A DNA stretch of 64,000 nt, from positions 346,518,001 to 346,582,000 of the forward strand of contig OZ024743.1 in NCBI GenBank assembly GCA_964016885.1. The letters run 5' to 3'. The notes under the pieces were generated by a model. That model was given only the letters and a program-made list of their open reading frames with translations. It did not search any database and was not told the origin of the DNA. Below are positions 24,317 through 62,660 of this stretch, piece after piece. This stretch comes from Eledone cirrhosa. Taxonomy: Eukaryota. A program made the translations under genes and the position numbers. Every line of letters starts with the position of its first letter. Positions within the stretch are counted from its first letter, which is position 1.

Positions 24317-24510
24317 ATAGGAGTAAGTAAGACCCCGACGGCTGAGCTCAAGCCGTTTCGACGGCTAATTCTGTACTGGATTAGCCGTCGAAACGGCTTG
24401 AGCTCAGCCGTCGGGGTCTTACTTACTCCTATTACCCACTTTACTACCCTAAGTATTGACCACTTTGGTGCGTTATGGTCCACCTGGTTCCTTACCACTT
24501 TTCCCTCGCT
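24317..24510 (+). mobile_element. Fold-back PLE pseudo-LTR fragment
   Basis: 116-bp hairpin 24317-24432 plus unpaired tail homologous to 26313-26380; (TA)n on both sides. Confidence 0.8.
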
Positions 24511-24540
24511 ATATATATATATATATATATATATATATAT

Positions 24541-26380
24541 ATTCTTCCGGGACTGGGGATTTAAAATAACCCTACAAACTTCCCTATCCCGTGTCAATTT
24601 CCTGGACGTTACCCTCAACACCGATAATGATCTGTGCTACATATACAGGAAACCAAACGACAAACTTCACTATATCCACCGCCGCTCTAACCATCATAGA
24701 ATCATCACCAATAACCTGGTTAAAAACACATCCCTCCGCATATCTCGTTTGTCCGCTAATGACCAGATATTCGATGAACATGCGCCTCATTACAACCAAG
24801 CCCTCAAGCCAAGCGGCTTTCGGTAGGAAATCTCCTTCTATCTAGCTCTCCTAGCGGAACCAGCAGGTAAAGCCGCCTCTCACGCAATGTAACGTGGTTC
24901 AACCCTCCCCACAATGCCGAGATGGCAACACCAATCGGAAAAATCTTTAGGCGCCTCGAAAAACACTTCCTACCACAACATAATCAACAAAAACACTATC
25001 AATCTCTCCTACAGCACCACACCCAACGTCGCACAAAACATCGACTCCTCAAACAAGATACTCAACCCCTATGGAGGAAACAACCTAGACATTAGTGGAG
25101 AGCCCACCAGGAGGTGTAACTGCCCTGATAGATCTACGTACTCCCTCAACAAAAAATGCCGAGAACGTAACGTGATCTGCCAATGCAACGTGAGGACGGA
25201 AACCTCCAACGAAGCCTATATAGGATAAACCACTTGCGACTTCAAGACCCGGCTCAACCAACACGGACATACGTTCCGAAACTCGGCCCGGCGACACGCC
25301 ACTACACTTTCGGACCACATCTGGGACCTGCAAGATAACAACATAACATACCACCTTACTTGGAGCTTACACTCCAGGGCTAACTACTACACGGGAGGAC
25401 GCCGTCCGTGTAACTTATGCTCGGAGGAAACATTACAAATGCTGTTTAGGAAGGACCAACTCCTAAATAAAAAATACGAACTTGTAACTGCATGTAAAAA
25501 CGATTGCGTAGGACTTACCTCGCCCTCAAATACCCTCATGACCCGGGTTGGTAGACAATGGTTGCAACATCCTTCTTTTACCAACTTGCCGAACAAGATA
25601 GGGGAAACCCCAGCATACATAGGTAGATGTACTTCTTTTCTTTTTCTTTTTCTCTTTCTTTTTCTTTTTCTTTTCTACTTCCTTTTATCCCTTCTTATCA
25701 CTTCCTTCCACCCCCACTCCTCTTCCTTTTCCTTTTTCCTCTTTCGCCTACCCGAAAGCAGCCCATCGGGCTTTTGTAGCCTCAGTCCCCCCATCCCAGT
25801 ATATTATTAAAAGCATTGGCCGAAAACGCAATACCAGCTAAAAATATAGCAACTGCTTTAGACTCTAGAGATTTTTAAAATTATTTTTTCTATTTAATTT
25901 TATTATTATTTTTTTTTTTATTATCTTTTAATCTCAATTTATAAATCTTTTAATTCTATAACGTCCCTCTCTCAGTATCCTTTTTCGTCTGCTTCCTAAC
26001 TAGCCTAATTTCATACACACTCCTTAGAATTTGCTGTATAGAATTCACTTTCAACGCTTGACCGGCTCCACCCACTCCCTCATTGGTCTACAGGCTAGTT
26101 CAGGCACCACCACCTCCCACCCACCACCATGACAGATTTAATTGTGTTTACAAGAAATGTTGACTAATCCTTTTGACAACTACAATCTTCCTATATAAGT
26201 AATTACCCCTTGAAAAGTTCGGCTATTTATTACCACGATGAAAATGCTAATTCAGTCCAGAAATAGCCGTCGAAACGGCTTGAGCTCTTCCGTCGGGGTT
26301 AAACATTTTTCTATTACCCACACTTTACTAAGTATTAAGTACTCAGGTCCATCTGGTTCCTTACCACACTTCCTTCGTTA
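24541..26380 (+). mobile_element. 5'-truncated Penelope-like element: RT C-terminus, GIY-YIG endonuclease, 3' UTR/pLTR
   Basis: VNFLDVTL...YRKPNDKLHYIHRRSNH; WFNPP; CNC...C...YIG*TTCDFKTRLNQH; CNLCSEE...LLNKKYELVTAC; stops and frameshifts; ends in (TA)n. Confidence 0.9.
26232..26300 (+). ncRNA. Degenerate type-I hammerhead in the PLE 3' region
   Basis: (a)CGATGA...gctaattc/gaaatagc helix II...GAAACGG-cttgagctctt-CCGTC-gggg; 5' core damaged. Confidence 0.5.
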
Positions 26381-26439
26381 TGTATATATATATATATATA
26401 TATATATATATATATATATATATATATATGTATATATAA

Positions 26440-26755
26440 TAATTGTTTCTACTTTTGGCACAAGGCCAGCAATTAACGAGTACATTACTGGTACTTTATT
26501 TTATCGACCTCGTAAGGATGAAAGGCAAAGTTAACCTTGGCGGGATTTGAACTCAGATCGTAAAGGGACGTAACTATGCTGGAAAGCATGTCCAGCCCTC
26601 TACCAAATTCTGCCAATCAACAATAATTGTTTCTACTATTAGCACAAGGCCAGCAATTACCCATTACATTACTGGTACTTTATTTTATCGACCCCGTAAG
26701 GATGAAAGGCAAAGTTAACCTCGGCGGGATTTGAACTCAGAATGGCAATCCATAA
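26440..26755 (-). mobile_element. Two tandem family-1 SINEs
   Basis: Reverse-complement core present twice. Confidence 0.8.
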
Positions 26756-60028: not shown

Positions 60029-60082
60029 TATATATATATATATATATATATATATATATATATATATATATATATATATATA

Positions 60083-61305
60083 TGGAGAATAGAAATGGCT
60101 GTGTATGTGCTATTTAAGGTAACTTAAAATGCAGTTGGAATACGAAGAAAGCAAGAACAGGTGGGGGGGGGGGGTCCTCATCAGTTGTCTACTGGGGTTC
60201 TAGGATATTTCTACGCTTTAAAGACAAGATACCACATCACCCCCAGGACGTCAATAGCTGGATAAGTTATTGGGAAAACGAAGGAAGGAGGAAAAAAAAC
60301 AAAGGGGAAGAAAAGAGAAAGAGTAAGAAAACAGCGAAAAACAAACAAACCGAGCAATGTGCGAGCAACTATAGGTAGGAAATCCAAGACCACTCCATCA
60401 GAGAACTTAAGTTCGAGACCGTGTAATCGAGAGAAAAGACACACATCCGATCGCTGCAGTTGTAAGTGAGAAGAGAACTGCTAAACGGTCAGACGAGGGG
60501 GCGAAAGTAAGAGGGAGAAAGGGAGAGGAAGAAAGTGGGGTATGAGTAGATAAGGAGAAAGGGAGGAGAAGAAAGAGGGGTGAGAGTAGAAAGTGGCGAA
60601 ATAGGTAGAAGAGGAGAGAAGAATGGTCACAGCGAAAAACATGATGATATATATGGAGAATAGAAATGGTTGTGTAGTTGCTATTTAAAGTAATTTAAAA
60701 TGCAGTGGGAATGCGAAGGAAGCAAGAACAGTGGGTGGGGAGTTTTCCTCATCAGTGTTCTACTGGGAGTCTAGGATATTTCTACGCTTTAAAGACAAGA
60801 TACCACTTCACCCCAGGGCGTCAATAACTGTATAAGTTATTGGGAAAATGAAGGAAGGAGGGAAGGAAAGCAAAAGGGAAGAAAAGAGAAACAGTAACAC
60901 AACAGCGAAAAAACAAACAAACCAAGCAATGCGCGAGCAACTATAGGTGGGAAATCCAAGACCACTCCATAAGAGAACTTAAGTTCGAGAGCGTGTAATC
61001 GAGAGGAGAGACACACGTTTGATCGCCGCAGTTGTACGTGAGAAAAGAACTGCTTAAACGGTCAGACGAGGGATTGAAAGTGAGAGGGAGAAAGGGAGAG
61101 GAAGAAAGTGGGATAAGAGTAGATAGGGAGAAAGGGAGCGGAAGAAAGAGGGGTGAGAGTAGAAAGTGGTGAAATAGGTATAAGAGGAGAGAAGAATGGT
61201 CACAGCAAAAAACATGATGAAATATATGGAGAATAGAAATGGTTGTGTAGTTGCTATTTAAAGTAACTTAAAATGCAGTGGGAATACGAAGGAAGCAAGA
61301 ACAGG
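60083..61305 (-). mobile_element. Non-coding tandem element (subfamily A): 2 x ~572 bp + ~80 bp
   Basis: TGGAGAATAGAAATGG at 60083, 60654 and 61227; strong purine/pyrimidine strand asymmetry; (TA)n on both sides. Confidence 0.85.
60178..60246 (-). ncRNA. Candidate non-circularly permuted hammerhead (A1, best copy)
   Basis: Minus strand: CTGGGG-gtgatgt-GGTAT-C-TTGTCT-ttaaagcgta-GAA-ATATC-ctagaa-CCCCAG-t-AGACAA-CTGATGA; second copy at 60749-60816. Confidence 0.65.
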
Positions 61306-61540
61306 GGGGACATATATATATATATATATATATATATATATATATATATATATATATATATATATATATATATATATATATATAGTATTAAGGATACTAT
61401 TTATGGTTATGTATACAGTAAAACCTTTTATAATTATATATATGTTAAACCCTAAACAGTGAAAGACTTATTTATTACTACCTTATTACCAGTAAGATAA
61501 ATAGCTCAATGTAATAACATCAGTTATTCTACAGAGCAGT

Positions 61541-62660
61541 TATATAGAAATTACATGAATCAAAGTTCTGTTCTAATCATTTATTCGCTTACAATTGTTT
61601 CTTCCAAACCAAGTTTTGGAGTCTTCGGAGCAATTTTTCAATGATTGTTTACATACTTGACCTCCTTTTCAACACAAGAGACATACAGAAACATATGTAT
61701 ATATTGATGCACAGTGGGTTGACATCCATTATAATATTTAAGCATGGCATTTTACATTTAAAGATTAAAGTCATATTAAAAGAAAATTACAACAAAATTA
61801 AAGTTATAATACAACATTGGCAGTCTATGAAGGTGATGCAGGAGGATAGTTAGAAGTAGTTAGTTACACGTGGGGCATGCACGTGTGTCCTATTTATATA
61901 GTTACCTCCCCTCAAGCATTAACTCCCCTTAATCACATACACACTTCCGGAAAATAATACGATGTTAAGCCTCGCAACAAAAACAACCTGCTATATAATA
62001 TTGGATTAAAGAACATCAAGATGTAATATTCTAACCTAATTCATCAAGCATCCAATATTGAATCATCGTAGATTATGTGAAGGACATATTCTCTATATAT
62101 TACGATTCCTGGATTGTGAAAATGGTGGTGTATACGAAAACCATAACACTGTTTTGCTTCTCATTCTTAATACTTTAAATATTTCTCTGCATACAAGCTT
62201 CTATATCATACATATAAAATACTATACAACCCCCATAATACTCTTGCTTGCCCGCTTAAAGTGCTTATATTCCATATAACACCTTACCGCACTATAATAT
62301 TATATAAATAGGACACACGTGCATGCCCCACGTGTAACTAACTACTTCTAACTATCCTCCTGCATCACCTTCATAGACTGCCAATGTTGTATTATAACTT
62401 TAATTTTGTTGTAATTTTCTTTTAATATGACTTTAATCTTTAAATGTAAACTGCCATGCTTAAATATTATAATGGATGTCAACCCACTGTGCATCAATAT
62501 ATACATATCTTTATGTATGTCACTTGTGTTGAAAAGGAGGTCAAGTATGTAAACAATCATTGAAAAATTACTCCGAAGACACCAAACCTCGGTTTGGAAG
62601 AAACAATTGTAAGCGGATAAATGATTTGAACAGAACTTTGATTCATGTAATTTCTATATA
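61541..62660. mobile_element. PLE 3' region with a 360-bp inverted pLTR copy
   Basis: Arms 61541-61900 / 62301-62660 with a 400-bp spacer; hammerheads at 61585-61633 (-) and 62568-62616 (+); related to 26960-27410. Confidence 0.85.

What the first reader, a model, noticed from the sequence alone, without database searches (positions are those of the whole stretch)
24317..62660. (TA)n-embedded, ribozyme-bearing fold-back mini-Penelope system
At least eight inserts from several pLTR families (24317, 28853, 29130, 33541, 45525, 55029, 59570, 61541) share one layout: microsatellite, inverted copy, hammerhead region, usually an unpaired 3' tail, then (TA)n. About a dozen hammerhead or hammerhead-like motifs occur in 64 kb. 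PLE inverted pLTRs, tails and minimal dimeric hammerheads are established knowledge. The near-universal (TA)n flanks and the apices clustering at the ribozyme suggest microsatellite-targeted insertion with hairpin-primed second-strand synthesis, which could also multiply TA tracts and produce dsRNA substrates for ADAR (inference).
Basis: partly seen in the sequence, partly recalled or inferred. Interest (0 to 1): 0.75.

Follow-up and report, generated by a model that had tools for sequence, protein, structure and literature searches.

The report
Hydra-clade Penelope stumps in TA repeats
These mirror-image inserts are short, head-to-head leftovers of a known group of jumping genes already reported to land in TA repeats, and their uneven halves indicate that each was likely written from both cut DNA strands off one RNA rather than by a DNA hairpin folding back.

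Summary
The layout is real: all eight inserts are head-to-head copies with a one-sided tail, and 107 of 110 genome-wide copies of four families end at (TA)n against a 3% background. They are not a separate mini-element system. Three families trace to protein-coding Penelope-like parents; one intact 716-aa ORF carries the published motifs of the Hydra clade, for which hammerheads and (TA)n insertion are already described, including an octopus family (PMC8557442). The hairpin-priming idea fits poorly: in 23 of 72 palindromes the tail-less arm holds 5' sequence missing from the tailed arm (12 the reverse), so each arm read the template separately, while shared variants show one template. Outer ends sit at two fixed sites followed by TA; apices cluster at a fixed 5' limit, likely the transcription start, which is at the ribozyme in only two of four families. 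Best reading: both cut strands of a TA tract prime on one RNA and the cDNAs are end-joined (about 0.6). Empty sites, long reads and RNA editing could not be tested. The scan reached the same two-ended reading before on other DNA. An ORF-less, TA-flanked retrozyme lies just outside the coordinates.

The parts
24319..24509 (+). Insert E1 (family F1): short inverted arm ending at start site 1, apex in the stem II loop of the hammerhead, long arm with 3' half of the hammerhead and 80-nt tail to start site 2; (AT)24 left, (TA)16 right. The loop belongs to the tail-less arm.
24542..26382 (+). Decayed, 5'-truncated Hydra-type parent of an older F1 subfamily: broken RT-thumb/linker/GIY-YIG ORF, 3' UTR, hammerhead with U3:A8 core (about 26203-26300), tail, then (TA)23.
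   Evidence: (tblastn 64% to the intact ORF)
26750..27409 (.). Older head-to-head insert of family F8: inverted tail on the left, plus-strand arm with U4C-core hammerhead ending at site 1, then (TA)24.
28386..28722 (+). Ninth insert (family F7): 13-nt inverted arm, hammerhead-like core at 28440, tail; TA on both sides.
   Evidence: read from sequence
28853..29066 (+). Insert E2 (family F2): 72-nt arms, apex just 5' of a minimal hammerhead (core 28935, palindromic stem III ACAATTGT), 67-nt tail, (TA)30.
29127..29312 (-). Insert E3 (family F3): both arms begin at about the predicted hammerhead cut site; no core retained; 90-nt tail on the left; TA both sides.
33542..33700 (-). Insert E4 (F1 relative, 86%): 20-nt short arm, 3' half hammerhead, tail on the left; (CA)10(TA)19 right.
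45526..46058 (+). Insert E5 (family F5): about 185-nt arms each with a hammerhead-like motif, apex about 100 nt 5' of the core, 146-nt tail; (AT)46 and (AT)34.
55023..55577 (-). Insert E6 (family F6): about 240-nt arms each with a hammerhead (cores 55272 minus, 55389 plus), 63-nt tail on the left; short spacer belongs to the tail-less arm.
59560..60028 (-). Insert E7 (family F7): tailed arm on the minus strand; the 100-nt spacer with the hammerhead (core 59784, plus strand) belongs to the tail-less arm.
61384..62654 (-). Insert E8 (family F8): tailed arm 61384-61900 on the minus strand, 400-nt spacer belonging to the tail-less plus arm (61901-62654), U4C-core hammerhead in both arms; (AT)36 and (TA)24.
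45168..45433 (-). Single-arm F3 relative with a complete hammerhead (core 45365), TA on both sides; further relatives at 20581-20711 and 36168-36426.
19817..20542 (+). Outside the finding: 1.15 units of a 632-nt ORF-less tandem repeat with a complete type I hammerhead (core 20214), fixed 3' end, TA on both sides; retrozyme-like.

Best explanation
The inserts are truncated, head-to-head insertion products of several Penelope-like retrotransposon families, at least three of them Hydra-type, likely made when both cut strands of a (TA)n tract prime reverse transcription on one RNA and the two cDNAs are then joined at their far ends. Shown: two fixed outer ends per family (site 1 and site 2, 60-170 nt apart, the gap being the tail), both abutting TA; native TA-type letters follow each site; a variable inner junction; each arm can hold sequence that the other lacks; arms share variants. 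Inferred: the GIY-YIG domain cuts both strands of the self-complementary (TA)n target; each 3' end pairs with the 2-6 nt UA stretch at one start site; when the sites in the 5' UTR of the mRNA are used the cDNAs run off at the capped 5' end and give 180-500 nt stumps, when the sites in the downstream tandem copy are used kilobase palindromes result; the cDNA 3' ends anneal through short palindromes (GTAC, AATT) or are end-joined with small insertions. The hammerhead is carried along; cleavage is not needed for the product.
For: Parent: intact 716-aa ORF in a partial tandem (L266) with RWR, DKT, YRDD, CxCX5C, CNLC..E and CKH, matching the Hydra definition; fold model pLDDT 93.7 with telomerase RT as best match. 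F2 and F8 lie directly behind related ORFs. Fixed ends: 67 of 72 inverted arms end at site 1 when the other arm ends at site 2; 35 of 41 unselected TA-bounded palindromes have a tail of 23 nt or more; 12 of 13 ORF-bearing palindromes pair site 1 with site 2. Independent reading of the template: tail-less arm longer at the 5' side by 10 nt or more in 23 of 72, tailed arm in 12, level in 37; by 1.1-2.8 kb in L267, L269, L276, L282, L283. One template: 104 differences in 15,594 nt within ORF palindromes against 2.4% between them, with private variants shared by both arms in 7 of 11; 55 of 59 polymorphic positions alike in both arms of the minis. Fixed 5' limit: 86 of 144 arms start within -4 to +15 of it and only 6 further upstream; the full-length unit L281 starts there too; G stands at -1 in 12 of 21 non-native junctions (hand count; p 0.002-0.02). 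TA target there before insertion: unprimed 5' ends abut TA in 9 of 9 retrozyme insertions with a visible 5' end. Raw reads show TA runs behind both sites in over a thousand reads per run. In vitro, a Poseidon PLE cuts and extends both strands and starts at two sites that bound the tail (PMC11167929).
Against: Later one-sided deletion in a palindrome could also produce arms with unshared 5' sequence, and gene conversion could make arms alike; neither is excluded. The transcription start is inferred from junctions only; several of the -1 G letters can be read from the partner arm. In vitro the two strands showed no difference in start site and priming was without homology to the target (PMC11167929), which differs from the site 1/site 2 pairing and TA microhomology seen here. 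One ORF palindrome is site 1/site 1 (L284) and one mini is site 2/site 2 (L018). L053 joins arms of two subfamilies. Only 9 of 38 copies scored as single-armed have TA at the 5' side (many of the 38 run past the reference or had a missed short arm), so target deletion or new TA synthesis at primed ends remains open. F3, F5, F6 and F7 were not tied to an ORF.
Confidence: 0.6

Rival explanations
1. One reading: one cDNA primed at the tail end folds back on itself and copies its own strand; the endonuclease cuts the new duplex at site 1; later one-sided deletions make the asymmetry.
For: Arms share variants. The F1 cDNA end can form a short hairpin (GAAT on ATTC), and L051 has the loop on the tailed arm. 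Self-priming was proposed for PLE palindromes (PMC3846280) and endonuclease resolution for the tail (PMC8557442). The site 1/site 2 pairing fits this route as well.
Against: The loop is on the tailed arm in 1 of 26 tail-selected F1 palindromes, while 8 are loop-less perfect palindromes centred on GTAC. The tail-less arm is the longer one in 23 of 72, often complete to the 5' limit, also in the youngest family (F3, 7 of 16; arms 0.6% apart). Single-arm copies also end at site 1, as a priming site would.
Confidence: 0.22
2. Two different RNA molecules are copied, one from each cut strand, and the arms are later made alike or come from the same source locus.
For: L053 pairs an old-subfamily short arm with a young tail; 4 of 59 polymorphic positions differ between arms; L284 and L018 use the same site twice.
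Against: Private variants shared by both arms and fourfold lower divergence within than between insertions; strong site 1/site 2 pairing.
Confidence: 0.1
3. The minis are a self-propagating non-autonomous element that is transcribed and re-inserted as a palindrome.
For: F1 minis are numerous and near-identical (765 first-look candidates, 40 of 40 scored at 100% over the tail) and differ slightly from the ORF-bearing copies found (91-95%).
Against: The apex differs from copy to copy while the outer ends are fixed, so the palindrome is made anew each time; L018 and L040 run on into native 5' UTR sequence behind site 2; the same architecture occurs with kilobase ORF-bearing arms. A short linear transcript from a solo pLTR is not excluded as template.
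Confidence: 0.06
4. The palindromes are assembly or library fold-back artefacts.
For: No long reads could be laid; strand-change joints in raw short reads were few.
Against: Arms differ by 2-16% in the window, ends are fixed at family-specific sites, spacers carry native sequence, and the architecture is known from other species (PMC3846280).
Confidence: 0.02

Closest known systems
Hydra clade of C-terminal-endonuclease Penelope-like elements, including Hydra-1_Obim (Craig et al. 2021, PMC8557442; read: section 11 whole, passages on structure and motifs, supplementary table rows)
   Same: Single ORF, RW[K/R], DKT, CxCX5C linker, no CCHH, CxxC and CxH around the conserved E and N, hammerheads, (TA)n insertion; an octopus family with (TA)n preference is listed.
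   Different: Units here are 3.5-4.2 kb (paper: generally under 3 kb; Hydra-1_Obim 2,507 bp with no pLTR seen). Here pLTRs, partial tandems, two start sites, short run-off palindromes and variant hammerhead cores (U3:A8, U4C) are visible; the clade is very abundant and young in this genome. No direct sequence comparison with Hydra-1_Obim was made.
Typical EN+ PLE insertion with inverted 5' pLTR and tail (Arkhipova et al. 2013, PMC3846280, passages; PMC8557442, passages)
   Same: Head-to-head inverted copy, tail at one end only, Inr-like TCACT in the pLTR, microhomology junctions.
   Different: Tails here are 60-170 nt rather than 30-40; target duplications cannot be read in (TA)n; the paper proposes self-priming on an antisense template, which the unshared 5' sequence on either arm does not favour.
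PAc Poseidon element in vitro (Frangieh et al. 2024, PMC11167929; read: main text parts 1-2 of 4 and passages)
   Same: Two RT start sites bounding the tail, both target strands cut and extended, AT-rich target, hammerhead cleavage dispensable.
   Different: PAc primes without homology to the target and shows no strand difference in start site; here each site is followed by TA-type letters and the two arms nearly always use different sites. The passages searched do not treat inverted repeats.
Non-LTR retrozymes (Cervera and de la Pena 2020, PMC7229834, passages; bioRxiv 10.64898/2026.07.22.740005, part 1 of 5)
   Same: ORF-less, type I hammerhead, thought to be PLE-derived; the 632-nt repeat at 19817-20542 fits.
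   Different: The eight palindromes are not tandem units with a whole hammerhead in each; the 632-nt unit is longer than the 150-450 nt reported and is TA-flanked with a fixed 3' end.
L1 twin priming (recalled, not read here)
   Same: Both target strands prime on one RNA and the cDNAs are joined by microhomology.
   Different: L1 gives adjoining, non-overlapping inverted pieces; here the two cDNAs cover the same stretch and start at fixed sites.

Membership tests
Hydra-clade PLE | Single ORF with RT and C-terminal GIY-YIG endonuclease | tested here: met
   716-aa ORF in L266 with YRDD and VIYQ...AYIG; model matches telomerase RT best. Pfam found no family in it; one of 16 homologues gave a weak GIY-YIG hit.
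Hydra-clade PLE | RWK motif and DKT in place of DKG | tested here: met
   RWR at 36, DKT at 116; RW[KR] in 114 and DKT in 112 of 120 homologues.
Hydra-clade PLE | CxCX5C linker; no CCHH; CxxC and CxH around E and N | tested here: met
   CNCPDRSIC at 571, one Cys inside the GIY-YIG core, CNLC at 669, CKH at 697; same pattern in F8 and F2 parent ORFs.
Hydra-clade PLE | Hammerhead motif and (TA)n insertion | tested here: met
   Type I motif in both pLTRs of L266; TA flanks.
Hydra-clade PLE | Phylogenetic placement with the published Hydra references | not tested
   Reference proteins were not on hand as stored sequences; membership rests on the motif list.
Hydra-clade PLE | Each window family tied to a Hydra-type ORF | tested here: inconclusive
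   F1, F2, F8 tied; F3, F5 not tied in 4 and 5 extended loci; F6, F7 not extended.
Neptune/Nematis PLE | CX2-5CxxC linker and CCHH motif in the endonuclease | tested here: not met
   Linker is CxCX5C and CCHH is absent.
Naiad PLE | N-terminal endonuclease | tested here: not met
   GIY-YIG is C-terminal.
EN+ PLE insertion architecture | Partial tandem, inverted 5' copy, one-sided tail | tested here: met
EN+ PLE insertion architecture | Target-site duplication | not testable with these tools
   Hidden in (TA)n; no empty site found.
Non-LTR retrozyme (the eight palindromes) | ORF-less tandem units each with a complete type I hammerhead | tested here: not met
   Head-to-head, not tandem; cores missing in three of eight.
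Non-LTR retrozyme (19817-20542) | ORF-less tandem units each with a complete type I hammerhead | tested here: met
   632-nt unit in dispersed arrays of 1 to 5 or more copies, longest open frame 83 codons, complete hammerhead.
Non-LTR retrozyme (19817-20542) | Self-cleavage and circular RNA in vivo | not testable with these tools

The most novel reading that the evidence does not exclude
Hydra-type PLEs insert by a symmetric two-ended reaction on one capped RNA, pairing each cut TA strand with a UA stretch at one of two fixed start sites, and in doing so have split and lengthened TA tracts so often that 15-30% of this genome's (TA)n microsatellite edges or blocks are retroelement ends, with on the order of 200,000 short palindromes.
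Probability: 0.4. Interest if true: 0.6.

Novelty: new member of a known kind. Interest (0 to 1): 0.33.

Why it matters
How PLEs make inverted ends and target microsatellites is named as open in PMC8557442. These young, abundant Hydra-type families, with an intact ORF and two mapped start sites, make it directly testable, and the copy statistics argue for two-ended priming over the self-priming model in print. They also mean that many TA microsatellites here are element junctions: 57 of 390 random TA blocks touch one of only seven families, against 1 of 97 other microsatellite blocks, which matters for marker design and repeat annotation. The clade, its target, its hammerheads and the architecture are already published, so the finding as stated is largely ordinary.

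Tried and rejected
Rfam scan: no hammerhead among the 150 best of 187 matches shown; hits were miRNA models on hairpins and microsatellites. Neptune assignment, my first guess, was dropped after the motif check. Search for family F7 in the genome returned nothing, not even the window's own copy, so it shows nothing. Empty-site paralogues: none true among 57 and 189 insertions tested against about 1.6 Mb of held DNA; all hits were other PLE ends (one search was cut by output size). Sequencing runs: no RNA holder listed and no long-read run listed. Raw RAD-seq reads gave few strand-change joints (8 opposite-strand rows, 1-19 reads each per run; 1 row); many molecules end at the AATT beside the F1 apex, probably a restriction cut (my inference), so these runs cannot test the apex. 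Dimer prediction for residues 1-480: no answer. Pile-up of arm starts at the hammerhead cut site: 6 seen, 2.7 expected, p 0.056, not significant. Mirrored A-to-G bursts: none in 72 palindromes; one copy had two shared A-to-G changes. Single-sequence folding of eight hammerhead candidates gave z below -2 in one only (the L266 stretch was cut too short). The de novo figure that 174 of 551 TA-block sides belong to recurring fixed-end clusters against 4 of 124 other sides has an unmatched control and includes LINE and SINE ends. Literature searches for twin priming or a head-to-head mechanism in PLEs and for Neptune targeting returned no paper proposing two-ended priming on one RNA; the library lacks most subscription papers, and bioRxiv supplements could not be seen.

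
Full report
Observation. Masked self-comparison shows inverted arms at all eight named places, and the sequences show microsatellite, arm, junction, arm, tail, microsatellite. Corrections to extent, strand and ribozyme content are given in the observation check. The window lies in a 3.0-Gb genome that is rich in TA tracts: 138 tracts of six or more units in the window, 99 per 64 kb in sixty evenly spaced 10-kb samples. Even so only 3% of ordinary positions have (TA)4 within 14 nt, so direct contact of element ends with TA is far beyond chance. 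TA-bounded palindromic segments number 8 in the window and 41 in 600 kb; scaled up this is roughly 200,000 per genome (extrapolation).

Families. I searched the genome with the tail of four families so that the apex did not bias the sample, and fetched 30, 25, 25 and 30 of the 40 copies scored each time (F1, F2, F3, F5; three of the 110 are the window's own copies). First-look candidates were 765, 69, 569 and 1,445, lower bounds. Of 110 copies, 107 end at TA; 72 have an adjacent inverted arm, 67 of which stop at one fixed base (site 1) and 66 of which abut TA. The automatic call missed a few short arms (L091, L103, L116, L138) and L090 and L135 are doubtful. F8 and F6 show the same two ends. 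In raw short reads of runs under one coded species label, over a thousand reads per run go on into TA behind site 1 and 3,800-5,100 behind site 2 of F1-type copies. The native letters after the sites are TAT, TA, TA, TATA and TATATA for site 1 of F1, F2, F3, F5, F8 and TAT for site 2 of F1 and F8.

Parents. The decayed copy at 24542-26382 links F1 to an ORF. A protein search found 150 scored matches among 57,402 candidates. I fetched 20 with long frames. L266 holds an intact ORF of 716 residues from the first Met in a partial tandem of about 3.5 kb. It has RWR, DKT, YRDD, CxCX5C, no CCHH, CNLC..E and CKH, which is the motif list that defines the Hydra clade; that section also states that hammerheads are present and that almost all families insert into (TA)n (PMC8557442), and its table lists Hydra-1_Obim from an octopus with (TA)n preference. 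The 120 best homologues share the motifs. The predicted structure is confident and matches telomerase RT best. F8 sits in 4.2-kb tandems in front of a related ORF and F2 directly behind one; F3 and F5 could not be tied. The parent hammerhead of F1 has a U3:A8 core; F8 has a U4C core, read by eye. That such variant cores can be active is recalled, not tested.

Where the arms begin. In F1 no arm reaches upstream of a point inside the stem II loop, which is also where the full-length unit L281 begins. Across four families 86 of 144 arms start within -4 to +15 of a fixed point and 6 further upstream; the 5'-most start of 54 of 72 palindromes lies in that interval. The point lies inside the ribozyme in F1, 8 nt before the core in F2, 87 nt in F3 and 114 nt in F5. 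Its context (TCAGT, TCACT, CCATT, ACACT) resembles an initiator; TCACT is named as such in PLE pLTRs (PMC3846280). G replaces the native base at -1 in 12 of 21 non-native junctions (hand count, test), as a copied cap would give, though several can be read from the partner arm. I infer a transcription start. The apices therefore mark the RNA's 5' end, not the ribozyme. An excess at the cut site was not significant.

How the two arms arise. A cDNA that folds back can only copy what it already holds, so the tailed arm should own all extra sequence. It does not: the tail-less arm is longer at the 5' side by 10 nt or more in 23 of 72 copies, the tailed arm in 12, and 37 are level. In the window this is plain in E7 (100-nt spacer with the hammerhead) and E8 (400 nt), and slight in E1, E2 and E6. 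In 13 ORF-bearing palindromes 12 pair site 1 with site 2, the arms abut within a few bases, and the site 1 arm is longer by 1.1-2.8 kb in five. Yet the arms come from one template: 0.67% difference within against 2.4% between insertions, and private variants on both arms in 7 of 11; 55 of 59 polymorphic positions agree in the minis. Junctions show 1-6 nt overlaps in 12 of 35 asymmetric copies, a 14-nt overlap in one, and blunt joins or inserts in the rest; in F1 eight of 26 are perfect palindromes on GTAC with no loop. With the in vitro result that a PLE protein cuts and extends both strands from two start sites (PMC11167929), the simplest account is two-ended priming on one RNA. Later one-sided deletion of a fold-back product is the main rival and is not excluded.

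TA tracts. Unprimed 5' ends abut TA in 9 of 9 retrozyme insertions, which favours a tract present before insertion; no empty site was found. The pure TA run at the tail end has a median of 13 units against 8 for a randomly split, length-weighted background tract: compatible with lengthening, but also with preference for long tracts. Each insertion splits one tract into two, and elements pile up on TA strings, as at 28306-29435; 20 of 144 neighbours beyond a flank are ends of the seven families. Of 390 random TA blocks 57 touch one of these families, against 1 of 97 CA/TG or GA/TC blocks. LINE and SINE 3' ends also abut TA in this genome, so one-sided contact is not specific to PLEs.

ADAR. Read-through RNA over the arms would be double-stranded (inference). 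No mirrored A-to-G burst appeared in the 72 palindromes; earlier scan notes report such copies elsewhere in this genome, which I did not check.

Comparison and verdict. Clade, target, hammerheads, inverted copy and tail are all in print. My searches found no paper that proposes two-ended priming on one RNA for PLEs, but the scan's own notes reached it several times in other genomes and once described the same stumps in this one; I had formed this reading before opening them, and they gave me the lead to PMC3846280. The finding is a new set of members of a known kind with a useful mechanistic read-out. Interest 0.33.

Noticed in passing
window 19817-20542: ORF-less 632-nt repeat with a complete type I hammerhead, 98-99% identical copies (2,732 first-look candidates), tandem arrays, fixed 3' end and TA on both sides: a young TA-targeted non-LTR retrozyme, probably moved by a PLE protein.
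   Followed up: partly
window 60083-61311 and 38682-40025: Two related GA-rich repeats between TA tracts: 2.15 tandem units of about 571 nt, and a nested inverted arrangement; a CTGATGA core lies on the minus strand with GAAA upstream of it, not in type I order. Possibly the scrambled-hammerhead family of earlier scan notes.
   Followed up: no
L266, L281, L299 (G000:C1:363020001-363030000, C3:110466001-110474500, C1:152447001-152457000): Intact or near-intact Hydra-type units; the inferred start lies inside stem II of the F1 hammerhead, so the first ribozyme copy of a transcript would be incomplete and only the downstream copy whole.
   Followed up: partly
L267, L268, L280: Head-to-head palindromes of 4-5.7 kb with 98-99.9% identical ORF-bearing arms and almost no spacer persist in the assembly.
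   Followed up: partly
window 55774-56377: Second decayed Hydra-type endonuclease remnant (40% to the intact ORF) behind the TA tract right of E6.
   Followed up: no
window 3243-5255, 11723-12330, 17583-18038, 23154-23739, 26434-26748, 30818-32113, 46959-47154: About twenty copies of a roughly 190-nt SINE-like repeat, several in tandem; some 3' ends also abut TA.
   Followed up: no
window 46202-46256 and 57849-57908: Small perfect hairpins (55-60 nt) not assigned to a family.
   Followed up: no
clusters: 74 clusters of fixed-end sequence beside TA tracts, most unassigned; many may be ends of further PLE families.
   Followed up: no
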